DNA of 64,000 nt from Candidatus Thalassarchaeum betae (GTDB taxonomy: Archaea; Thermoplasmatota; Poseidoniia; Poseidoniales; Thalassarchaeaceae), in contig PSPG01000003.1 in assembly GCA_003193925.1 (NCBI GenBank), forward strand, positions 32,001 to 96,000. The letters are read 5' to 3'. The notes below the pieces were generated by a model. That model was not told where the DNA came from. It was given only the letters and a program-made list of their open reading frames with translations, and did not search any database. A program made the translations under genes and the position numbers. Shown piece after piece: positions 50,799-64,000 of the stretch. Positions within the stretch are counted from its first letter, which is position 1. Each line of letters begins with the position of its first letter.

Positions 50799-50883
50799 TG
50801 GTGCAGGGGACAGGATTCGAACCTGCGAAGCACTACGCACAGCGACCTGAACGCTGCCCCTTTGACCACTCGGGAACCCCTGC
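50799..50883 (-). tRNA. tRNA-Leu(CAG)
   Basis: GCAGGGG acceptor stem, anticodon arm CAGCG-TT-CAG-GT-CGCTG, long variable arm, GGTTCGAATCC, encoded CCA. Confidence 0.96.
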
Positions 50884-50959: not shown

Positions 50960-51044
50960 TGGTGCAGGGGACAGGATTTGAACCTGCGAAGCACTACGCA
51001 CTGGGACCTAAACCCAGCCCCTTTGACCACTCGGGAACCCCTGC
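50960..51044 (-). tRNA. tRNA-Leu(TAG)
   Basis: Anticodon arm CTGGG-TT-TAG-GT-CCCAG, GGTTCAAATCC, encoded CCA. Confidence 0.96.
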
Positions 51045-53190: not shown

Positions 53191-53290
53191 GGGACTGTGA
53201 AATAACTAGCACTTATGAGGTTTAGGGTTCCCTAAATTCAATATGCACGCTGGCGATAGAATCATGTTGCTCGCTTCTGGTAGATGCCCG

Positions 53291-55291
53291 ATGGCCCGGG
53301 ACACCAGTGCCTCTGCTCTCGCCCTTCTGCTGGTACTCTCGATGGTGGCATCGACGATGCCGCTCGGGTCCGGACCTGAGCATCTGGACGAGGGAGGCCT
53401 GCGTATGGAGCAAATCGGAGGAGGAGGTTCGCTCGAGGAGCAATGTGGCTCAATAACCTTCGAGGACATGTTCGCCTACACCAAAGCAGACTTCGTGATT
53501 CACATCAATGACGACTGGCAGAGCGCGGAGGTACAGGCGGTCGCCTGGGTGAACTGGACGCTCGCCGATGACCTCAGAGAGACGATGGACGAGTTCATGG
53601 CTGAACTCGACCCCAACAACGGCGGTGACGGCTGGCTCTCCACCGACGAGCGGGAGTTCTTTCGGGCGCTCGCGAGCGAGTGCATCGAGCACACGCTGAC
53701 CAGAATAGGGTTCAGGGATGGCTCGTACCACAGAGGTGGCGAGGGAGTCAGTTGGAAGAACACCAGCTGGGAGGAGGACGGAGTCGAGATTGAGGAGTTC
53801 AATCTGGTTCCCCTAAGGCACTCACAGATCCGCGACTGCACCTCCGCCTTTGGCAACGACTGCGAGGAGGTGCCTGTCGCACCCGATGAGAACCGCGACT
53901 GCGACACCGACATCCCGCCCTCGGATGGCGTCGACGAATGCAGGGCCATACTGTGGATGAACTCCACGTTGACTATCCCCGGAGTCTCTGACGGCAACCA
54001 GTTCACTCTTGCAATCAACGCTTCCAACATGAGCAACGCCGCTCTGGAGTTCACCTTCCCAATCACTCCAGACCTCCGCCTAGACATGTGGGAGGAGTGC
54101 GAGGGGCGCGACGTGAGTTACGAGGAGGAAGCGGTGATCCCAGCCCCCATCCGTGGGACCTGTCTGGGTGATGGTTCCTCCACGTACACGCTCGTGGAGA
54201 ACGACAACGGTGGTCTGACGATGACCATCCTGCCTGATGCAGATACTCTTGATTGGCCCTCGGGAGAGGACCTGTTCGCAGACTTCACCACCGCCCCCAT
54301 ACCCGTCGACAATCCGCCTGAGTGGACTGACGCTGCGCCTCCTGAGGGCGCCTGGTTCCCCTCTCCCAGCGGCGGGCAGCACGTCTGGGCGACCTGGCAT
54401 GATGTCTCCACGTGGTTCACCGATGAGGGCAGCGTCACCCAGTTGGACATTCAGTGCACCGGCGCGTCCTCGCTCCAACTCAGCGAGGGCGCGGACCGCT
54501 CATGGTGGGCAGAGATCCCGCGTGGAAGCACCGGAGAGGTGACCTGCCAAGCCGAGGACTCTGCCGGACAGAGCACTGGAAACAGAACCTGGAACCTCGG
54601 TGTCCCGTTCTCACTCTCGACATCCAGCCAGACGCTAGTCGACCCTCATCCGATTACCCTCAGCCCGACATCCGACTGGCCCGATCTAACCGTCGAGGTC
54701 GGACTGGTGCAGGATGGCCAGTCCTTGCCGACCTCCTCAGTCACTTTCACCGGGGAGGTCACATTGGACCTCGTGTCTTTTAACACGGTACCAGGGCCGG
54801 TGCAAGTCTGGGTCAGCGTCCAAGGTACCGACGTCTACTCGATGGAGCATGTGTATGAGCTCGGTCTGACTAAGGAGAGTTCTCCCCCGTTGCTCACGAT
54901 CACATCGACGGAATGGGACGGGTCAGAGTGGTCGATGCAGGGGCAGTATAGCGACCCTGACGGCGAAGCCGTCACCTTCACGATGGCAATAGACGGCTCC
55001 GCTACAGGCTCGGTTAGCTCGAGCGGCAACACTTGGTCGACCCCTAGAATAAACTTCGAGCTCTGGGATGAGGGAGAGCACGTGGTCACCATCGAGGGCT
55101 GTGATGCTTCGAGCAAATGCTCCAGTGTTTCGCAGACTGTGAACAACTCTCACCTCTTCGATGAGCCAGAACCAAACCCTCTCCCTACCACTGTTGATGA
55201 TGGAGGCAGTGGCTTGCTACCTGCTGCTGGCCTACCTGCACTCATCATTGCTGTAGTCGGTGCCCTCATGTATGGTAGGCGGCGCGGCTGA
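53291..55291 (+). CDS. Exported acidic surface protein with Ig-like domains and C-terminal sorting signal
   Basis: Signal peptide from ATG 53291, Cys-containing N-terminal domain, GQYSDPDGE and EGEHVVTIEGCD, then LPAAG + TM + RRRG. Confidence 0.8.
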   Translation: MARDTSASALALLLVLSMVASTMPLGSGPEHLDEGGLRMEQIGGGGSLEEQCGSITFEDMFAYTKADFVIHINDDWQSAEVQAVAWVNWTLADDLRETMDEFMAELDPNNGGDGWLSTDEREFFRALASECIEHTLTRIGFRDGSYHRGGEGVSWKNTSWEEDGVEIEEFNLVPLRHSQIRDCTSAFGNDCEEVPVAPDENRDCDTDIPPSDGVDECRAILWMNSTLTIPGVSDGNQFTLAINASNMSNAALEFTFPITPDLRLDMWEECEGRDVSYEEEAVIPAPIRGTCLGDGSSTYTLVENDNGGLTMTILPDADTLDWPSGEDLFADFTTAPIPVDNPPEWTDAAPPEGAWFPSPSGGQHVWATWHDVSTWFTDEGSVTQLDIQCTGASSLQLSEGADRSWWAEIPRGSTGEVTCQAEDSAGQSTGNRTWNLGVPFSLSTSSQTLVDPHPITLSPTSDWPDLTVEVGLVQDGQSLPTSSVTFTGEVTLDLVSFNTVPGPVQVWVSVQGTDVYSMEHVYELGLTKESSPPLLTITSTEWDGSEWSMQGQYSDPDGEAVTFTMAIDGSATGSVSSSGNTWSTPRINFELWDEGEHVVTIEGCDASSKCSSVSQTVNNSHLFDEPEPNPLPTTVDDGGSGLLPAAGLPALIIAVVGALMYGRRRG

Positions 55292-55294
55292 GCC

Positions 55295-56185
55295 ATGAGT
55301 TTCTCCGGGACCGTGTCAAAGGCTTCGCATGAAGGAGGTCTTCTCATTGCCTTCGAGGGACGAGCCCCCAGACTCGGCGCCGCCATTCGGGTGGTCGGCG
55401 GCAAGACGCTGGGGCAGGTCGAAACGGTGATTGGCTCCGCCGGCGACCCGCTGATTCACATTCACCCTCTGTCAGAGGACGTGGATGCAAGGAGCGCCAT
55501 CGGCTCGCCGGTCGAAATCGCCCCCCGTGGGAGAGCGAACCGAGGCCACCGGGACAAGCGACCCGGACCGGACCGCTTCAGGAGGGAGCGAGGGGGCAAG
55601 TCCGATGGCGACAGGGACTCGCACATGAGGCCGGGCGACTGGCGCTGCCCGAAATGCAAAAACCACAATTACGCAAACAAGAAGGTCTGCAATCGAACTG
55701 GTTGTGAAGAGCCGAAACCGAGAGGCGGTGGCGGAAGAGACAGGGATTCTCGTAGCTATCGATCTAGTAACTCGGGTGGTTTCAGAGACTCAAATATGAA
55801 GCCGGGCGACTGGCGCTGCCCGAAATGCAAAAACCGCAATTTCGCAAACAAGAAGGTCTGCAATCGAACTGGTTGTGAAGAGCCGAAACCGAGAGGCGGT
55901 GGCGGAAGAGGCGGGGATTCTCGTGGCCATCGATCTAGTAACTCGAGTGGTTTCAGAGACTCAAATATGAAGCCAGGGGACTGGAATTGCCCGAAGTGCA
56001 ACAACCACAATTACGCGAGACGGGACGTTTGCAACCGCTGCGACACGAGAAAACCTGTGCCTGGGAGAGGATCCAAGACGACACCTCGGAGAGCGCGCAG
56101 ACCCCACACTCGTATGAATTGGAAAGGGAAGGGGCCTTCCAAAGGTAGGAGGAACACACCTGCCAGAGGCGGAAGAGGTCGCTGA
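55295..56185 (+). CDS. Gar1/Naf1-like domain fused to three RanBP2-type zinc fingers with RGG-rich linkers
   Basis: The N-terminus (G.V......G.LI......PRLG......K.LG.V..VIG....P...I.P) resembles archaeal Gar1. It is followed by three copies of PGDWxCPKCxNxN(Y/F)A...CNR. Confidence 0.8.
   Translation: MSFSGTVSKASHEGGLLIAFEGRAPRLGAAIRVVGGKTLGQVETVIGSAGDPLIHIHPLSEDVDARSAIGSPVEIAPRGRANRGHRDKRPGPDRFRRERGGKSDGDRDSHMRPGDWRCPKCKNHNYANKKVCNRTGCEEPKPRGGGGRDRDSRSYRSSNSGGFRDSNMKPGDWRCPKCKNRNFANKKVCNRTGCEEPKPRGGGGRGGDSRGHRSSNSSGFRDSNMKPGDWNCPKCNNHNYARRDVCNRCDTRKPVPGRGSKTTPRRARRPHTRMNWKGKGPSKGRRNTPARGGRGR
55625..56045 (+). repeat. 171-bp tandem repeat (57 aa), about 2.5 copies
   Basis: Units start at ATG 55625, 55796 and 55967. 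The first two are nearly identical in DNA; the third is partial and diverged. Confidence 0.92.
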
Positions 56186-56238
56186 TTCGGAATTTCAGGT
56201 ACCCCAGCCTTCATGCATTATCAGCGCCAGCGGGTGCT

Positions 56239-57309
56239 ATGGCCAAAAGCGCCGAGTTGACTTGGCTCGATGCGTTGGAGGCCGAGGAGTCGGGCGACAG
56301 GGAAGCCGCCCTCGAAGCCGCCAAGGAGACGGTGAGAATCGACCCGGGACACTCCGACGGGTGGATGGGGGTGGCCCGCTGGACCCTCCCTCTCGAGGTC
56401 AAGGGCCGGCAGGAGATGCCGAACCTGCAGCAGTCTGCCAAGGCCATGGCCGCCCTTCGTAAGGTCGTGGAGATCGACCCTGAGAATTCCGATGCTTGGA
56501 GGCTTGGAGGGGTGCTGTTGGTCGACCACCTTGGGATGCTTGAAGATGGCATCAGGTGGTGGGAGGCGCGGCGCGTGGTCGCGCCGTACGAGGTAGTACC
56601 CCTCATCGAGCAGATTGGGATACTCGTCAGGCTCGGTTACTACGAGGAGTGCGCCTTTCTCCTCGAGGAGCTGTTCAGCGAGGGTATGGATGCGACCGAC
56701 CGCAAGCAACTGGCCCAGATGGAGGCAGCCAGGCGCATGGTCTCCAGAGCTGCGAAGATGGAGAAGGACGAGATATTCAAGCCCCAGAACCCCAAGCACC
56801 CCCGTTGGGCCATTATCGGGAGGATGAAGAAAAAGAAGCCCATGTCTGACACCTTCTTCCTGTTCACCTTCATCGCTCCGTTGGTATTCATCCTCGGTAC
56901 TCTAGCCATGTACGCAATAGGCGACTCGACCTCGGGCAGCATACTCGTCTTCCTGTTCATACTGCTCTCGTTCATGGCGATCTCACGCCTCACATCGGGT
57001 TTTCTGCACAAGCTGAATCGGCATGCTCTCGACCTTGACCGGGCGATAGACGTTGAGACCAGCGCCGGCAAGGTCTGCATTCCCACCTCGATAAGGGCGA
57101 GCAAGCTGTACCTGGCGATGACGAAGAAGCGGATGCCAGGACTCAATGAGAGGCTCGAACTGATCGTCGAGTCGGGGGACAAGCTGTCAATCAGGTGGAA
57201 GCCAGAGATGCCGGACTTTGCCCCCGAGGAAGGCCACGAGAATCCCTGGTGGGCCGAAGGGGATGAGTCGGGGGCAGAGCAGGGGGACCTAGAGCCGCTC
57301 GAGGACTAG
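56239..57309 (+). CDS. TPR-repeat membrane protein
   Basis: ETVRIDPGHSDGW and KVVEIDPENSDAW TPR-like helices, plus two TM segments. Confidence 0.75.
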   Translation: MAKSAELTWLDALEAEESGDREAALEAAKETVRIDPGHSDGWMGVARWTLPLEVKGRQEMPNLQQSAKAMAALRKVVEIDPENSDAWRLGGVLLVDHLGMLEDGIRWWEARRVVAPYEVVPLIEQIGILVRLGYYEECAFLLEELFSEGMDATDRKQLAQMEAARRMVSRAAKMEKDEIFKPQNPKHPRWAIIGRMKKKKPMSDTFFLFTFIAPLVFILGTLAMYAIGDSTSGSILVFLFILLSFMAISRLTSGFLHKLNRHALDLDRAIDVETSAGKVCIPTSIRASKLYLAMTKKRMPGLNERLELIVESGDKLSIRWKPEMPDFAPEEGHENPWWAEGDESGAEQGDLEPLED

Positions 57310-58634: not shown

Positions 58635-61600
58635 TCAACCGCCGTCTCTGCGTTGCTGTTCGTAGTACTGGGCGTAGTACTGCTGAGCGTACTGTCTGGC
58701 CGTCTGCTCGTCGTAACCGGAGGCGACCATCTGCTGGACGTAGGCCTCGACCGGGTCCATCTCTTCGACGCCACCGAACTGCTCGACTGTGTCCTCGCCC
58801 GAGTCCTCTTTGCCTCGGCCGCGCATTACCACGGTTACAACGACAACCAGCAGGAGGATGACCACACCTATTCCTCCTATCAAGAGCATGCTCATGCCCT
58901 CGCCCTGGTCCTTCGATAGCACAGGAAGGTCTGGCAGGAGGTTGATGGCCAGCGTGTCTGAGATGACGTACCGGCTGCCGTCACCCTCGGTGATGCGCAC
59001 GTAGATGGTGGCAGCGACGCCGGTTTCCTGGTACAGGTCGGAGATGTCCAGAGTCAGGGTGAACTGCTGCCCGTCAGCGAGGAGTCCTGTCTTGTTGTAC
59101 TTGCCAATCGACTTCTGGGTGATCTTCTGGGTCGTCGTGTAGTCGAGGACGGCCTCGGTGAGGGCGACTTCGATGACGACATCGCTGTTCTCAGCGCCCG
59201 AGACGAGGCTTCCCGTGATCGTCACGAGGTCCTCGCTCTGGGAGTCTTGGGGCCTTGGCTTGGTGAAGTCCACGACAGGCTCGTCGTCGCCGAAGTCCTC
59301 TCCGACGACAACGAAGTACATCCTGGCCTTCTGGCTCTGCTTGCCGGCCTTGTCGTAGACAATCAGCTCGACGCGGATCTGGTTCTCGAGATTGCCGTCA
59401 GGGCTGCTGGTCAGGTTCCTGAACACATACGTCCAGTCGTCGCCGGCTGCTGCGGGAATCTGGAACTCGTGACCCTGCAGAGTCGGGTTCTGGCTGTCCC
59501 AGGGGTAGTCGAAGAAGACCTTCCACTCGTATAGCACAACGCCCTTCTCACCCTCAGGGGCATCGGGGTCGTAGCTGTCCTGCGCAGTGAAAGAGATGCT
59601 CAGGTCGCCCGTGTCTGACAGTCTGGTCCTGTAGACTGGCCAATCGACTCCGGCTACGGTCTTGGTGCCGTCCAGAGTGACGTACTCGTCGGTGACCTCG
59701 TTCTCGATCATGGAGGCGCTGGCGATGGGCCTGAATTCGTCGGCGAGGGTGTCATCGGTCACTAGGCGGATGTAGGTGATCCTAGTGTGGCCCTCCCCAT
59801 CGTGCAGGTACAGGGTCAGCATCCACTCGGCGCCAATCCTGCAGCCTGTGTCCGAGGTGGTGTCTCCGACGCAGAACGAGCCCAGAGTCGGTATGGATGG
59901 GTTGAGCTGCTGGGTGTGGCTAAACTCCCCAGCGTCGATAATCGAGCCGTCCCAACCAGTGACCGAGTCGTTGTTACCGGACTCAAGGGTCCAGTCTGCG
60001 ACGACGCCCTCGGCGGTGGTGACATAGCTGAAGTCGAGGTCGGAATTGCTCTTGATGTACATCGTAGCGTAGGCCCCGGTCACCGTGTCAATCGAAGGCG
60101 CCTCACCGTTGATGGACAGATCGAAGCTCTCGCCCGCTATACCGAAGTCGAGCGGGTACGGAGTCAAGTGGTAGGCGAGCATGTTCGACAGCAGGGGCAT
60201 CGACGAGCCGCCGTACTCCTCCGAGACACTCGGGTTCTCCACGTCGATCGTGGTGACGATCAACCCGCCGGCACCGCGATTGCACACGGACAGCAGGGAC
60301 TGGGTCTCGTAGTTAGTGTCACGGATCAGCGTGTGGAATGTGCCAACGGGGTCGCTGATGCGACCGCCGCAAACCTGCGGTATCTGGGTCCCCTGGACCT
60401 GTGCAGTGTCGAGGCCAGCAAGAGCGACGTAGGAGCCGCCGTGGACCCCGCTGAAAGCCACCGGGTCGACGTTGCTCAGAATCGGGTGGAACTGGTCGAT
60501 GATGGTCAGGTTGCTGTAGTGGATCCTGTTGTCGACGGTGAAGTTAGCCTGGTTCCTCATGGCGATGTCCATGCCGAAGGGCAGCCTGTTGGGCTGGTAC
60601 TCGTTCCTGTACGGCCCGAGGTGAATCTGCACCGTGCCGCCGCCGGTCATGTAATCCTCTAGGGTCTCAGTGACGGTGAGGCCATCGCTCTCGCGAGTCT
60701 CGTCGAGCTTCTCGTAGTAGTCACCGTAGTAGACGTTGTAGTCGGTCTGCCATGGCAGCAGTACCTTGTCGTAGTGCTCGACCCAATCGGGCGTGGCGTA
60801 GGTGTCCCAGTTCTCCATTTGCAGCTGGGTGTAGGTCTTGCCCATCGCCTCGAGGTCCCTCTTCACACTCTGCAGGCGGTTCTGATCAGTCGGGTTGGAC
60901 AGGACAGCCACGTCGATCTGTTCGAAGAACTGGATCTCGAAGTAGCGGTCGTTGCCCGAGCGCTCGTTGTCCTCGGTCAGCGTCCCGTAGAAGCTGATGT
61001 TGTAGGTGTGGCCGTCGTACCACGAGTTGTATGGATTGGTCCAGTTGGCCTGGTCCCTCGCGTGAGGCTCGAGGTCGAACGGCCCGTTGTCGCAGTCCTC
61101 CTCGTAGACTGTCTGGCCTGTGTCAAGGTCGACTATCTTCATCGTGATCTGGTACTCGCCTGCGATGACGCCGTTAAGCAGTGGCACAGCGAAGCTGTGG
61201 GCCGAGGCGTCATCGATCGGGTAGACGCACTCGTAGGTGATGTCGGCGACGCACTCGAGCACGTCGGGCTGCATCAGGGTGATGTCCGCGCTCGCGATGC
61301 TGAAGATGATGGAGGAGTGGTTGTTCGCGATGTTGACCTCGGACTCGTTGTACCATGAGGTAAGCGGGTCCGTGTTGTCGAAGATGGTGGTCACGTCGAT
61401 CTTGTAGATGCCGCTCTGGAAGTCGTGCGTGGCGAGGTTGACCTGCTGGCGCTGTGCGGCGTCGAGGCCGGTGACGTCGACTGTGTAGGTGCCATCGTCC
61501 TCGAAGGTGAACTCCTCGACGCGGATGTTGTCGATGCCGAAACCGGCCAGGCCGGCGTTGCCGTTGACGCCGTCGTCGTTGGACTGGAATCTCCAAGTCA

Positions 61601-64000
61601 GAGACACCTCGGAGCCAGCGAGGGTCGTGCACTCGTCCCTCCACTCGGAGGTGTCCTCGTTAGTGCGGTTGAGTATGACGATGTGAGTCAGGTCGACGGT
61701 CACCGACTTGAGGATGTTCTCGGAGTCGAACCAGACCACTGAGTTGATTCTGTCAGAGTGGTCGCCGAAGTACTCGACCTCGTCGTACCCGTTCAGGTCG
61801 AAGTCCTCACAGCGATGGAAGTTCGGGTCGTCCGGGTTGGTGTTCTGAATGCCGTTCTCGTTGAGGTCGGTCCAAGTTCCGTACACCACGCCCTCGAACA
61901 CCTCACCCTGCTTGGTCCAGGTAATCTCGAGGTTTGCTGCGTCCCGGATGGCCAGTATGTTGCCGTTGCTGTCCTTGAGATAGTCCCCTTCAGCGTAGTA
62001 GTCGTAGGTCAGGTAGGTGAAGTCGGCTCCTGTCGATGCGACCGGGATTGGATCCAGTGTCAGCGTCTCGTTCCAATTGTCGCCGTAGCCGTCACTCGGG
62101 TGGCCCAGCCAGTAGGCGTGGCTGTTGAACACGCCGCGGTTCTGTGGCAGCATGTCGTTCGAGCCGGTGGAGTCGTCCAGCCTGCTGCCGTTCTCGTTGC
62201 CGTCGTCGGTCCACATCGGCTCGATGCCCGAGAAGTCCTCGATAGCGACGAGATCGGGTTCGGCGTTCTGGATGAAGGCCTCGACCTGGAAGTCTGTCAC
62301 CGTGTTGCCGCAGTTCTGCACGCGCACCTCCACGTCCCTCTCGCCCGAGGCGTACCTGACGCCGTTCTCGAGGTCAACCCAGTGCTCCTCTGCGAGGCAC
62401 GGGTCGAACAGGTTGTTCACTGTCAGCTGGAATCTGATATCGTCGTTGAGGCCGTCCATGTCGATGAATCCGGACGGGTTGGTCAGCTCGGTCTTGACGT
62501 AGTAGGTCCTGTTGTCTATGAAGTCCGCAGTCAGGCTTACCTCCTCGGAGGCGCCGGCCGCGAAGTCGTTGAAGATGAGTTGCTGCGAGACTGTCTCGGT
62601 CGACCCGAAGGTGACGTCCCTCTTCCTGATGGTTATGTTGTCGAAGGCGAAGCCGTCCAGACCGGTGTCCTGAGATGACCCAACGGGTCCAACGGAGCCC
62701 ATCAGGCCGCTGCGGAAGCGGAAGCGGATGTCGATGACCTGCCCTGCGTAGCGCGTGAGGTCGATTGACTCCAACTCATTGGGGTCTTCCGAAGTGCCTC
62801 CGCCCTCAGTGTAGTTGATCCATCCTGTAGCAGTGTTGGCGAAGTTGTTGCCATTGTAGGTGTTGTACTCCGGGTCGACACCCTGCCAGTAAATGCGGAA
62901 GAAGCGCTCGTTGTCCCAGCCGCCGTTGAAGAAGACGGACTCCCAACCGTTGCCCTCGGACCAGACCTCGATGCCGCAAGAGTCCTCGTACAGCCAGCGC
63001 TCCACCACCGAGTACTGCTCGGCGAGATAGAGTTCGAAGTAGGCGGTGGTGCACATGACCGAGAGGTCCATGTACGCCGCATCGGCCCCGGTCAGGTCGA
63101 CGTTTTCGAGAATCAGTGCCTCGTCCATATTGTTGTAGTATCCAGAATCGCTCTCGTTGTCTCCGTTGTAGTCGATGCCGGCCCAGTAGTAGTCGGTGGG
63201 GTTGCTGTCGGCCTCGTACCAAGAGACATTCTCGGTAGCCGCAGTCGAGTTGCTCTCGATGTGCCACGAGGATGCCCCGGTTTCGTACATTCCGGTGTAG
63301 GAGTTCTTGACGAAGGCGCAGTTGGCGCAGTTAGTCGTGTCCTCGTTGCCCTCGAAGTCGTTGGAGTAGACCACGGTGTCGGTTCCGCCGACGACCTCCT
63401 TGACCTCGAGATCGACGTTGATGGAGCCTGTCAGCGGGTTAAGTCCCGTGTTCTTCACGGTCACGTTGACCCATCTCGTTCCCTCGCCGATCTCGGCCTG
63501 TCCAGTGGCGGGATTGTAGGACGCAGGCGCGATGGTGACCTCGGTGATGCCGACATCCTCGTTGTCGAGCGTGAGTACTGAGAGGAAGTCTCCAGCGCCG
63601 GCCCACCCTTGGGTGTCCAGCCACATCGCGTTGTCGGCGAATCTGTAGCCGTAGTCGCGCTGTCCGATGACGATCTCGTAGGCGCTCTCGTCACCGCCTT
63701 GCAATTGGGCGGGGATTGCCATGGTAGGCCGGCGGCCTACGTTGAACGAGAGTGACGAGAGGTAACCGGGCCCGCTGGGGTCGGCGAGGATGATCTCTAC
63801 CGAGTTGATCTCGCGCAGGTTGTCGAGCAGCAGGTAGGTCTGGTTCTGTGCGGTCGAGTCCTGCAGACGGGTCAGGGTGACCTCGGTCGGCACGAAGAAG
63901 TCGACCTCGCCGTCTCGGTTGATGTCGACGATGGTAAGCGAGGCGCCGAGGTAGTCGCCGAGATAGACGTAGTTCTGGGTGCTCCAGCTGCTGCCGCTCT
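58635..64000 (-). CDS. Giant multidomain cell-surface protein (5' end outside the window, >1780 aa)
   Basis: The frame stays open to 64000, with the FG-GAP-like VDINRDGEVDF. It has CARDB-like segments, two jelly-roll-like units ending GFAFDNITI and GFGIDNIRV, a PKD-like DSYDPD...YEW, a C-terminal TM and a cytoplasmic tail. Confidence 0.88.
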   Translation of the reverse strand, partial: SGSSWSTQNYVYLGDYLGASLTIVDINRDGEVDFFVPTEVTLTRLQDSTAQNQTYLLLDNLREINSVEIILADPSGPGYLSSLSFNVGRRPTMAIPAQLQGGDESAYEIVIGQRDYGYRFADNAMWLDTQGWAGAGDFLSVLTLDNEDVGITEVTIAPASYNPATGQAEIGEGTRWVNVTVKNTGLNPLTGSINVDLEVKEVVGGTDTVVYSNDFEGNEDTTNCANCAFVKNSYTGMYETGASSWHIESNSTAATENVSWYEADSNPTDYYWAGIDYNGDNESDSGYYNNMDEALILENVDLTGADAAYMDLSVMCTTAYFELYLAEQYSVVERWLYEDSCGIEVWSEGNGWESVFFNGGWDNERFFRIYWQGVDPEYNTYNGNNFANTATGWINYTEGGGTSEDPNELESIDLTRYAGQVIDIRFRFRSGLMGSVGPVGSSQDTGLDGFAFDNITIRKRDVTFGSTETVSQQLIFNDFAAGASEEVSLTADFIDNRTYYVKTELTNPSGFIDMDGLNDDIRFQLTVNNLFDPCLAEEHWVDLENGVRYASGERDVEVRVQNCGNTVTDFQVEAFIQNAEPDLVAIEDFSGIEPMWTDDGNENGSRLDDSTGSNDMLPQNRGVFNSHAYWLGHPSDGYGDNWNETLTLDPIPVASTGADFTYLTYDYYAEGDYLKDSNGNILAIRDAANLEITWTKQGEVFEGVVYGTWTDLNENGIQNTNPDDPNFHRCEDFDLNGYDEVEYFGDHSDRINSVVWFDSENILKSVTVDLTHIVILNRTNEDTSEWRDECTTLAGSEVSLTWRFQSNDDGVNGNAGLAGFGIDNIRVEEFTFEDDGTYTVDVTGLDAAQRQQVNLATHDFQSGIYKIDVTTIFDNTDPLTSWYNESEVNIANNHSSIIFSIASADITLMQPDVLECVADITYECVYPIDDASAHSFAVPLLNGVIAGEYQITMKIVDLDTGQTVYEEDCDNGPFDLEPHARDQANWTNPYNSWYDGHTYNISFYGTLTEDNERSGNDRYFEIQFFEQIDVAVLSNPTDQNRLQSVKRDLEAMGKTYTQLQMENWDTYATPDWVEHYDKVLLPWQTDYNVYYGDYYEKLDETRESDGLTVTETLEDYMTGGGTVQIHLGPYRNEYQPNRLPFGMDIAMRNQANFTVDNRIHYSNLTIIDQFHPILSNVDPVAFSGVHGGSYVALAGLDTAQVQGTQIPQVCGGRISDPVGTFHTLIRDTNYETQSLLSVCNRGAGGLIVTTIDVENPSVSEEYGGSSMPLLSNMLAYHLTPYPLDFGIAGESFDLSINGEAPSIDTVTGAYATMYIKSNSDLDFSYVTTAEGVVADWTLESGNNDSVTGWDGSIIDAGEFSHTQQLNPSIPTLGSFCVGDTTSDTGCRIGAEWMLTLYLHDGEGHTRITYIRLVTDDTLADEFRPIASASMIENEVTDEYVTLDGTKTVAGVDWPVYRTRLSDTGDLSISFTAQDSYDPDAPEGEKGVVLYEWKVFFDYPWDSQNPTLQGHEFQIPAAAGDDWTYVFRNLTSSPDGNLENQIRVELIVYDKAGKQSQKARMYFVVVGEDFGDDEPVVDFTKPRPQDSQSEDLVTITGSLVSGAENSDVVIEVALTEAVLDYTTTQKITQKSIGKYNKTGLLADGQQFTLTLDISDLYQETGVAATIYVRITEGDGSRYVISDTLAINLLPDLPVLSKDQGEGMSMLLIGGIGVVILLLVVVVTVVMRGRGKEDSGEDTVEQFGGVEEMDPVEAYVQQMVASGYDEQTARQYAQQYYAQYYEQQRRDGG

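What the first reader, a model, noticed from the sequence alone, without database searches (positions are those of the whole stretch)
55295..56185. Archaeal Gar1-like protein with eukaryote-style RanBP2 zinc fingers and RGG linkers
Seen: an ~80-aa Gar1-like beta domain, then Arg/Gly-rich linkers (PRGGGGRDRD, PRGGGGRGGD, RGGRGR) and three fingers. The third, PGDWNCPKCNNHNYARRDVCNRC, closely follows the ZRANB2/FUS/EWS/TAF15 RNA-binding pattern GDWxCxxCxNxN(F/W)ARRxxCNxC. The first two have a CNRTGC variant. Known: archaeal Gar1, the H/ACA pseudouridylation RNP subunit, is normally just the small core; GAR tails are eukaryotic, and these fingers bind GGU-containing ssRNA. Inference: an H/ACA subunit that has gained a FET-like RNA-recognition and low-complexity module, perhaps recruiting substrates or forming condensates.
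Basis: partly seen in the sequence, partly recalled or inferred. Interest (0 to 1): 0.8.

Follow-up and report, generated by a model that had tools for sequence, protein, structure and literature searches.

The report
Archaeal Gar1 with RNA-type zinc fingers
The only Gar1 gene (a subunit of the RNA pseudouridylation machine) of this marine Group II archaeon carries a long tail of three eukaryote-type RNA-binding zinc fingers and arginine/glycine-rich linkers, and similar tails occur across the whole archaeal order.

Summary
Window 55295-56185 (+) is a 296-aa ORF with four kinds of part:
- a Gar1 beta-barrel core (aa 1-79);
- three RanBP2-type zinc fingers (Pfam 69.8 bits, cut-off 27);
- low-confidence Arg/Gly-rich linkers;
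- a basic C-terminal tail.

The core is Gar1 by four tests: profile search of PDB, fold search (TM 0.76/0.83 to P. furiosus Gar1), a supportive co-fold with the genome's own Cbf5, and being the only Gar1 candidate in a genome that also has Cbf5, Nop10 and L7Ae.

The fusion is not a one-off. The core occurs, almost always once, in 281 of 301 sampled genomes of the order, always with a tail (0-4 fingers, up to 36 RGG). Non-order relatives have short or merely basic tails.

Of 81 distinct fingers, 64 keep the ssRNA-contact signature of ZRANB2/FUS. In this gene finger 3 keeps all of it. Fingers 1 and 2 are a recent 171-bp tandem duplication and lack the Arg-Arg pair.

Most likely this is a working H/ACA Gar1 with an added single-stranded-RNA-binding tail. 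RNA binding, substrate recruitment and condensation are untested. I found no paper describing it. It is a new variant of a known kind.

The parts
55295..56185 (+). gar1 ORF, 296 aa plus stop. The start lies 3 nt after the stop of the upstream ORF.
   Evidence: The N-terminus MSFSG is conserved in homologues.
55295..55531 (+). Gar1 beta-barrel core, aa 1-79. It ends in the family-invariant EIAPR.
   Evidence: Profile against PDB; AF2 pLDDT 93.2; Foldseek ranks 1-14 all Gar1. The predicted Cbf5 interface uses aa 11-13, 17, 24-27, 44-53 and 55, which include the invariant columns H12, P25, L27, V45, G47.
55532..55615 (+). Linker 1, aa 80-107: basic, low-confidence.
   Evidence: pLDDT below 50 in the full-length model.
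55616..55726 (+). Finger 1, aa 108-144: W116-x-C118-x2-C121 ... C132-x4-C137. It has Asn128-Lys129 where ZRANB2 has Arg-Arg.
   Evidence: Pfam stretch; pLDDT 86-90; residue mapping.
55727..55786 (+). Linker 2, aa 145-164: PRGGGGRDRDSRSYRSSNSG.
   Evidence: pLDDT below 50.
55787..55897 (+). Finger 2, aa 165-201: a near copy of finger 1.
   Evidence: Units 1 and 2 share 160 of 171 nt and 48 of 57 aa; Pfam stretch.
55898..55960 (+). Linker 3, aa 202-222: RGGGGRGGDSRGHRSS...
   Evidence: pLDDT below 50.
55961..56065 (+). Finger 3, aa 223-257: the canonical C-x2-C ... C-x2-C form with D229, N237, N239, Y240, R242, R243, N247.
   Evidence: Best Pfam stretch, 226-254. Aligns to ZRANB2 and ZNF265 fingers at E 1e-4 to 4e-4. 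RNA-contact positions taken from PMC6384913.
56066..56182 (+). Basic C-terminal tail, aa 258-296, ending in RGGRGR.
   Evidence: pLDDT below 50 for 262-296.
55625..56016 (+). Tandem DNA repeat: period 171 bp, 2.3 copies, 92% matches. It is the finger-plus-linker unit.
   Evidence: Same-genus genomes carry 2, 3 or 4 fingers.

Best explanation
This is the organism's single, functional Gar1, the Cbf5-bound subunit of the archaeal box H/ACA pseudouridylation RNP. In the order Poseidoniales (Marine Group II) it has acquired a C-terminal 'beads on a string' tail.

Shown in silico: the beta-barrel core docks on the catalytic domain of Cbf5 as in solved complexes.

Inferred: the tail adds direct, multivalent binding of single-stranded RNA. 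It consists of folded RanBP2-type zinc fingers of the ZRANB2/FUS ssRNA-binding subclass, separated by disordered Arg/Gly-rich and basic linkers. Canonical archaeal Gar1 lacks such binding. Finger 3 probably reads GGN/GGU-like triplets. Fingers 1 and 2 probably bind with altered or weaker specificity. The RG linkers add non-specific affinity. Together they would raise the local concentration of substrate RNA (pre-rRNA, tRNA) at the RNP, or tether the RNP to it.

Finger number changes quickly by tandem duplication and loss of a 171-bp unit.
For: Identity of the core:
- The A2 profile's best six PDB matches are all Gar1.
- The model has pLDDT 93.2, and Foldseek ranks 1-14 are all Gar1.
- This ORF is the only hit of Gar1 model NF009631 in the genome and the only A2 hit.

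Partners in the same genome:
- Cbf5, 307.9 bits against a cut-off of 238.
- Nop10, 43.2 bits against 27.2.
- The L7Ae family, 2 hits over the cut-off.
- Cbf5 was found in 41 of 41 genomes of the order that I searched.

Co-fold of Cbf5 with the core:
- Score 0.84; best of 3 controls 0.00.
- The mark was reached by 58 of 80 solved complexes and 2 of 110 mismatched pairs.
- The runs agree in at least 98% of contacts, and the partner's pLDDT is at least 87.
- Like complexes are solved (2ey4, 2hvy), so the pass may come from memory and shows likeness only.
- The interface residues coincide with the family's invariant columns.

Conservation:
- The core is in 281 of 301 genomes of the order, in 64 of 66 high-quality ones and in 26 of 26 genera, nearly always as a single copy.
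- All 72 loci in my census carry a tail.

Fingers:
- Pfam 69.8 bits.
- Of 81 distinct fingers from 53 proteins, 64 keep Asp, Asn14, an aromatic at 17, Arg20 and Asn24.
- PMC6384913 (passages read) names N14, the position-17 aromatic, R19, R20 and N24 as the RNA contacts of ZRANB2-ZF2. It also reports that EWS and FUS fingers, which have Trp-Arg at 19-20, still select GGU. Here FR occurs 43 times, WR 9 and RR 10.

Architecture: in the full-length model the core and the three fingers have pLDDT 80-92 and the linkers are below 50.

Precedent: yeast Gar1 RGG domains affect RNP dynamics and substrate turnover (PMC8096250, passages read).
Against: - No experiment exists. RNA binding, zinc binding and Cbf5 binding are all predictions.
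- The curated Gar1 HMM cut-offs are not reached.
- Fingers 1 and 2 carry Asn-Lys in place of the Arg-Arg pair. PMC6384913 reports a finger with Lys-Ser at these positions that did not bind RNA.
- Several genera (g4, g8, g25) and family f2 do without any finger, so the fingers are dispensable for Gar1's core role.
- No H/ACA guide RNA was identified. Rfam on the window gave only two tRNAs, and the rest of the genome was not scanned.
- Transcription is not shown.
Confidence: 0.72

Rival explanations
1. The fingers mediate protein-protein contacts rather than RNA binding, as the Npl4/RanBP2-type fingers that bind ubiquitin or Ran do. They would recruit another factor to the H/ACA RNP.
For: RanBP2-type fingers are known to bind proteins as well as RNA (abstracts of PMC7154859 and PMC8034646, seen in the listing). 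Fingers 1 and 2 of this gene lack the Arg-Arg pair.
Against: 64 of 81 distinct fingers across the order keep the whole RNA-contact signature, and finger 3 keeps every position. The Thr-Phe ubiquitin-binding signature of NZF fingers is recalled from memory, not from a call; it is absent, since the equivalent positions read K-N or N-N. The fingers are embedded in RG-rich linkers, as in FUS.
Confidence: 0.1
2. The protein has left the H/ACA RNP. It would be a Gar1-fold RNA-binding protein with a new role, either a Naf1-like assembly chaperone or an independent RNA chaperone or ribosome-assembly factor.
For: The curated Gar1 HMMs do not reach their cut-offs. Naf1 domains also appear in the fold search, at ranks 25 and 40 with TMq 0.65-0.66.
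Against: It is the only Gar1-like gene in a 91.8%-complete genome that keeps Cbf5, Nop10 and L7Ae. True Gar1 chains outrank Naf1. The residues predicted to touch Cbf5 are the invariant ones.
Confidence: 0.07
3. It is an artefact: a chimeric assembly, a collapsed or expanded repeat, or eukaryotic contamination in a metagenome bin.
For: The array is a 171-bp tandem repeat. Short-read contigs break inside it. Several relatives' genes run off contig ends or contain N-runs.
Against: The same architecture is found in 281 of 301 genomes, including single-contig genomes such as G027 and G003. Every junction of the array is reproduced without differences in two runs not flagged as possible sources. The exact copy number in this strain still rests on tiled, not spanning, pieces.
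Confidence: 0.02

Closest known systems
Archaeal Gar1 (Pyrococcus furiosus; PDB 2ey4, 2hvy, 3hay)
   Same: The six-stranded barrel fold (TMq 0.76, TMt 0.83), the sequence profile match, the predicted docking on Cbf5, and the same partner set in the genome.
   Different: About 20% identity. The known protein is 74-104 aa with at most a short basic tail. This one adds 217 aa holding three zinc fingers and RG linkers.
Eukaryotic Gar1/GAR1 with GAR (RGG) domains (yeast 3u28, human 7trc)
   Same: A Gar1 core plus disordered Arg/Gly-rich extensions. Cousins of this gene carry up to 36 RGG. PMC8096250 calls such domains eukaryote-specific.
   Different: Eukaryotes have GAR domains on both sides of the core and no zinc finger. 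Here the extension is C-terminal only. The core is closest to archaeal Gar1, so the tails most likely arose independently.
RNA-binding RanBP2-type fingers of ZRANB2 (2k1p/3g9y, 1n0z) and FUS/EWS/TAF15 (6g99)
   Same: The W-x-C-x2-C-x3-N-x6-C-x2-C scaffold with Asp, Asn14, an aromatic at 17, Arg20 and Asn24. The fingers are flanked by RGG, as in FUS.
   Different: Pfam finds no RRM, so it is not a FET or SR-like protein. Tyr or Phe stands where ZRANB2 has Trp. Fingers 1 and 2 have a C-x4-C last knuckle and Asn-Lys in place of Arg-Arg.
Basic-tailed Gar1 of other Thermoplasmatota (family f19 of the sample)
   Same: A Gar1 core followed by a 43-86-aa Arg/Lys/Gly-rich tail. This resembles the finger-less forms in genera g4, g8, g25 and family f2 of the order.
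   Different: No zinc finger. PF00641 passes its cut-off outside the order in 1 of the sampled genomes only, and there in an unrelated membrane protein.

Membership tests
Gar1 (H/ACA RNP subunit) | Match to the curated family HMMs (Pfam PF04410; NCBIfam PRK13149 models) | tested here: inconclusive
   PF04410 gives no hit at E<=10. NF009631 gives 16.4-18.6 bits against a cut-off of 139, E 0.002-0.008, and NF009632 gives E 0.096. The same models pass their cut-offs in only 2 and 0 of 14 control genomes, so a miss says little. A profile of the family itself finds solved Gar1 chains first.
Gar1 (H/ACA RNP subunit) | Gar1 beta-barrel fold | tested here: met
   pLDDT 93.2, pTM 0.82. Foldseek PDB ranks 1-14 are all Gar1/GAR1, best 2ey4_D at TMq 0.76, TMt 0.83.
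Gar1 (H/ACA RNP subunit) | Binds the catalytic domain of Cbf5 | tested here: met
   In silico only. Score 0.84, best of 3 controls 0.00. The mark was reached by 58 of 80 solved complexes and 2 of 110 mismatched pairs. At least 98% of contacts agree between runs, and the partner's pLDDT is at least 87. Like complexes are solved, so the pass may come from memory.
Gar1 (H/ACA RNP subunit) | Co-occurs with Cbf5, Nop10 and L7Ae, and is the sole copy | tested here: met
   The genome is 91.8% complete.
Gar1 (H/ACA RNP subunit) | Stimulates pseudouridylation and product release | not testable with these tools
   Needs biochemical reconstitution.
RanBP2-type zinc finger (PF00641) | HMM match over the cut-off and four Cys in the pattern W-x-C-x2-C ... 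C-x2-C | tested here: met
   69.8 bits against 27, in 3 stretches. Finger 3 is canonical. Fingers 1 and 2 have C-x4-C as the last knuckle.
ssRNA-binding subclass of RanBP2 fingers (ZRANB2, FUS, EWS, RBM5/10) | RNA-contact residues: Asp before Trp, Asn14, aromatic 17, Arg19/Arg20, Asn24 | tested here: met
   Finger 3 has D229, N237, Y240, R242, R243 and N247. Fingers 1 and 2 keep D, N, Y and N but have N128-K129 at positions 19-20, so they meet it only partly. Across the order 64 of 81 distinct fingers keep D, N14, the aromatic, R20 and N24. That the Asp is an RNA contact rests partly on recall, because the paper's numbering (D4) could not be mapped.
ssRNA-binding subclass of RanBP2 fingers | Binds GGU/GGN single-stranded RNA | not testable with these tools
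   Needs EMSA, SELEX or NMR.
FET family (FUS/EWS/TAF15) | RRM plus a low-complexity SYGQ domain next to the RGG-ZnF-RGG module | tested here: not met
   Pfam finds no RRM. The N-terminus is a Gar1 barrel. Only the finger-plus-RG module is alike.
Eukaryotic GAR-domain Gar1 | RGG-rich domains on both sides of the core | tested here: not met
   There is no N-terminal extension. The C-terminal tail has 5 RGG here and up to 36 in relatives.

The most novel reading that the evidence does not exclude
Marine Group II archaea independently built, or took from eukaryotic plankton, the module that eukaryotes use to organise nucleolar and splicing RNPs. That module is an Arg/Gly-rich disordered domain combined with FET/ZRANB2-type RNA fingers, placed here on Gar1.

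The multivalent tail would concentrate the H/ACA pseudouridylation machinery on nascent rRNA in a condensate-like, nucleolus-like assembly. Alternatively it would target Cbf5 to GGN-containing RNAs without a guide RNA.
Probability: 0.12. Interest if true: 0.85.

Novelty: new variant of a known kind. Interest (0 to 1): 0.64.

Why it matters
Gar1 is described as the one H/ACA protein that does not touch RNA, and RGG extensions of Gar1 are described as eukaryote-specific (PMC8096250, passages read). An entire, globally abundant archaeal order breaks both generalisations: its Gar1 carries RG-rich tails, and most lineages also carry fingers of the RNA-binding RanBP2 subclass.

In the phylum sample that finger type passed its cut-off outside this order only once, and in none of the 14 control prokaryotic genomes.

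This gives a natural, recombinantly tractable system in which to ask what RG tails and ssRNA fingers do for an H/ACA RNP. It is also a clear case of convergent, or transferred, 'eukaryote-like' RNP architecture outside the Asgard archaea.

No paper in the searched library mentions it. 'Gar1' with 'Marine Group II' gave 0 papers. Gar1 with RanBP2 and archaea gave 1 irrelevant paper. RanBP2 with zinc finger, archaea and RGG gave 3 irrelevant papers. JGI's automatic names already pair 'rRNA processing protein Gar1' with 'Zn-ribbon protein'.

Tried and rejected
- Pfam Gar1 (PF04410) on the whole genome gave nothing at E<=10. I do not read this as evidence against Gar1, because the model passes its cut-off in only 2 of the 14 control genomes.
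- Expression: of two RNA-library runs laid, X15 covers only the downstream gene. X18 gives short contigs at 90-99% likeness, for example 55963-56302 with 8 differences, from a relative. Contigs of an RNA library do not show transcription.
- Rfam at gathering thresholds on the window gave only two tRNAs and no H/ACA family. The rest of the genome was not scanned, and Rfam's archaeal H/ACA models are lineage-specific (recalled).
- Origin of the fingers: I did not attempt a phylogeny of a 30-residue domain, so whether they came from eukaryotes stays open. The one finger hit over the cut-off outside the order (G323) is a single C-terminal finger on a Pro-rich membrane protein, without the N-x-N-aromatic-x-R-R pattern. 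It is unrelated to this family.
- Lower GC3 of the tail (0.60, against 0.70 for the core and 0.72-0.81 for neighbouring genes) was considered as a sign of foreign origin. I left it unexplained. The fusion is order-wide and old, and units 1 and 2 are duplicates.
- Supplementary files of papers were closed. They could hold domain tables for MGII genomes that mention this gene.

Full report
**What is there**

Window 55295..56185 (+) is an ATG-started ORF of 296 aa. It begins 3 nt after the stop of the upstream ORF.

Pfam finds Zn_ribbon_RanBP (PF00641) at 69.8 bits against a cut-off of 27, in three stretches. Against PDB sequences the best matches are the RNA-binding fingers of ZNF265/ZRANB2 (1n0z E 1e-4; 2k1p/3g9y E 4e-4), RanBP2 itself and FUS (6g99 E 1e-3), chiefly through finger 3. 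In the whole 1.48-Mb, 91.8%-complete genome these are the only three places over the Pfam cut-off.

**Is the N-terminus Gar1?**

Curated HMMs are weak:
- NCBIfam NF009631: E 0.0079, 16.4 bits. NF009632: E 0.096.
- Pfam PF04410: nothing at E<=10.
- These models also miss most control archaea. PF04410 passes its cut-off in 2 of 14 control genomes and NF009631 in 0 of 14.

I therefore built a family profile of 30 N-domains from across the order (A2).
- Against PDB it gave 8 matches at E<=10. The best six are all Gar1: P. furiosus 2hvy_B E 7.9e-4, then 3mqk, 2rfk, 2ey4, yeast 3u28_C at E 0.041, and 9g25_C.
- AlphaFold2 on A2 gave pLDDT 93.2 and pTM 0.82.
- Foldseek against PDB put Gar1/GAR1 chains at ranks 1-14 (2ey4_D E 6.2e-4, TMq 0.76, TMt 0.83; also human telomerase GAR1 and yeast Gar1). 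Naf1 domains came only at ranks 25 and 40.

**Genomic context of function**

- Cbf5 is present: TIGR00425, 307.9 bits against a cut-off of 238, covering 10-321 of 322 profile positions. I read this coverage as including the PUA part, by inference.
- Nop10 is present at 43.2 bits.
- There are two L7Ae-family hits.
- The only Gar1-model hit and the only A2 hit in the genome is this ORF, so there is no second gar1.
- Fibrillarin is present but has no RG-rich extension.
- The flanking genes have no evident RNA-related function. They are an unannotated 682-aa ORF, a TPR membrane protein, AdoHcy hydrolase, an FTR1 permease and a G3P dehydrogenase.

**Co-fold**

I co-folded Cbf5 (alignment A3, 26 rows) with the core (A2).
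- Score 0.84; best of 3 controls 0.00.
- The mark was reached by 58 of 80 solved complexes and 2 of 110 mismatched pairs.
- The runs agree in at least 98% of contacts, and the partner's pLDDT is at least 87.
- Cbf5-Gar1 complexes are solved, so the pass may come from memory. It shows likeness, not binding.
- The Gar1 residues at the interface (11-13, 17, 24-27, 44-53, 55) include the columns invariant across the order: H12, P25, L27, V45, G47.

**Anatomy of the tail**

The full-length model (A1, 23 rows) shows:
- a confident core (blocks 81-92);
- three confident fingers (81-90);
- stretches below pLDDT 50 at aa 80-107, 145-164, 202-222 and 262-296.

This is a beads-on-a-string layout.

I mapped the alignment to ZRANB2-ZF2 onto the RNA-contact positions named in PMC6384913 (passages read): N14, the position-17 aromatic, R19, R20 and N24.
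- Finger 3 keeps all of them: N237, Y240, R242, R243, N247, plus D229.
- Fingers 1 and 2 keep N, Y and N. They have N128-K129 at positions 19-20 and a C-x4-C last knuckle.
- The same paper reports that a finger with Lys-Ser at 19-20 did not bind RNA, and that EWS and FUS (Trp-Arg) still select GGU.

At the DNA level, fingers 1 and 2 are a tandem duplication: period 171 bp, 2.3 copies, 92% matches. The two units share 160 of 171 nt.

**Distribution**

- A word-indexed search found 247 relatives of 162-518 aa, with 0-8 finger-pattern matches by my regex. The one with 8, P0115, does not start with the family's N-terminus. JGI names many of them 'rRNA processing protein Gar1 / predicted nucleic-acid-binding Zn-ribbon protein'.
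- In 301 genomes sampled from the order, the 80-aa core was found in 281, in 64 of 66 high-quality genomes and in 26 of 26 genera. It is nearly always single copy, in the listed matches in open frames of 101-502 aa.
- My census covers 72 loci. These are the top-scoring loci returned by the searches plus stretches I chose for diversity, not a random sample. Every one has a tail: 68-418 aa in complete ORFs, 0-4 fingers, 0-36 RGG, and R+G up to 0.59 of the tail in complete ORFs.
- Same-genus genomes have 2, 3 or 4 fingers.
- Complete finger-less forms with basic tails occur in g4 (2 of 2), g8 (10 of 10), g25 (1 of 1) and family f2 (2 of 2).
- Of 115 fingers in 53 proteins, 81 are distinct, and 64 of those keep D, N14, an aromatic at 17, R20 and N24. 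Positions 19-20 read FR 43 times, RR 10, WR 9 and NK 7.
- An exhaustive HMMER search of 1.84 billion cluster representatives found 141 hits at E<=1e-3. Of these, 113 at E<=1e-10 form the family. Among the 74 representatives of 140 aa or more, 44 have at least one finger. The weaker full-length hits are ordinary 74-101-aa Gar1 proteins.

**Outside the order**

In a 301-genome sample of the phylum, A2 hits outside the order lie mostly in frames of 76-110 aa. The sister family of the same class has 89 aa.

Inspection of 14 such loci showed two kinds of tail: 4-15 aa, or, in one family (f19) and a few others, 43-86-aa basic tails without fingers.

PF00641 passed its cut-off in 56 of 301 genomes. 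These were 14 in family f1 (including the window's genome), 41 in f3, and one outside the order. That one is an unrelated membrane protein with a single non-RNA-type finger. The 6 finger-found loci that I scanned all carry the Gar1 core in the same frame.

So a basic tail is older and wider in distribution, and the fingers are an innovation of the two large families of the order, with losses or repeated gains.

**Assembly and expression**

14 DNA runs hold at least half of the sampled words, and 8 of them are not flagged as possible sources.

Contigs of X7 and X13 tile the array with 0-1 differences. The pieces are 55045-55659, 55630-55739, 55710-55830, 55801-55910 and 55881-56700. They break inside the repeat, so copy number rests on tiling.

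RNA-library contigs are partial and come from a relative. That is not evidence of transcription.

**Interpretation**

The best-supported reading is a genuine Gar1 whose core works as in other archaea, bound to Cbf5 and gating the thumb loop (mechanism from PMC8096250, introduction). Its lineage-specific tail adds multivalent ssRNA binding.

The steps stand as follows:
- Shown in silico: the Gar1 fold, the partner set, the predicted interface, the finger family, and conservation of the RNA-contact signature.
- Inferred: zinc and RNA binding, GGN preference, and an effect on substrate recruitment or turnover.
- Speculative: condensates, or guide-independent targeting.

**Literature**

None of my searches found a description of this architecture. 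The library lacks most subscription journals, and supplements were closed.

Noticed in passing
window 53243-55291 (+): A 682-aa ORF with no Pfam match. By eye it has a hydrophobic N-terminal stretch and a hydrophobic C-terminal stretch followed by RRRG. It ends 3 nt before gar1. A relative's miscalled protein (P0147) reads from a similar C-terminus straight into Gar1, so this neighbourhood seems conserved in part of the family.
   Followed up: partly
window 55295-56182: GC3 of the tail is 0.60, and 0.53-0.56 in finger units 1 and 2. The Gar1 core has 0.70 and neighbouring genes 0.72-0.81. Unexplained.
   Followed up: no
L042, L046, L048, L050, L052, L053, L055, L057 (C-termini): Many tails in both large families end in a similar short motif, roughly K-G-x-x-x-H-x-[HF]-x-N-R-x-P-x-x-P-F-[KR]-R-R. 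It may be a conserved linear motif. The window's genus instead ends in RRP..R..W...GRGR.
   Followed up: no
L089-L093, L100-L102: Gar1 of another Thermoplasmatota family (f19) has 43-86-aa Arg/Lys/Gly-rich tails without fingers. Extended basic tails on archaeal Gar1 are therefore not confined to Marine Group II.
   Followed up: partly
L146 1492-2841 (-): This is the only PF00641 hit over the cut-off outside the order (32.5 bits). It is a 449-aa Pro-rich protein, by eye with hydrophobic N-terminal segments, carrying one C-terminal finger (W-x-C-x2-C ... C-x2-C) that lacks the RNA-type residues.
   Followed up: partly
L143 1405-2166 (+): The genome's fibrillarin (253 aa) has no RG-rich extension. 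It lies next to a 334-aa ORF that I did not identify.
   Followed up: no
window 50802-50883 and 50963-51044 (-): Two adjacent tRNA genes, each an 82-nt match.
   Followed up: no
window 58635-63998 (-): A very long ORF, at least 1752 aa, running off the window end. Not examined.
   Followed up: no
G080 (C37 and C38): One genome of the order has two Gar1-plus-finger genes on two contigs, in open frames of 284 and 461 aa. This could be a real duplication or a mix of strains in the bin.
   Followed up: no
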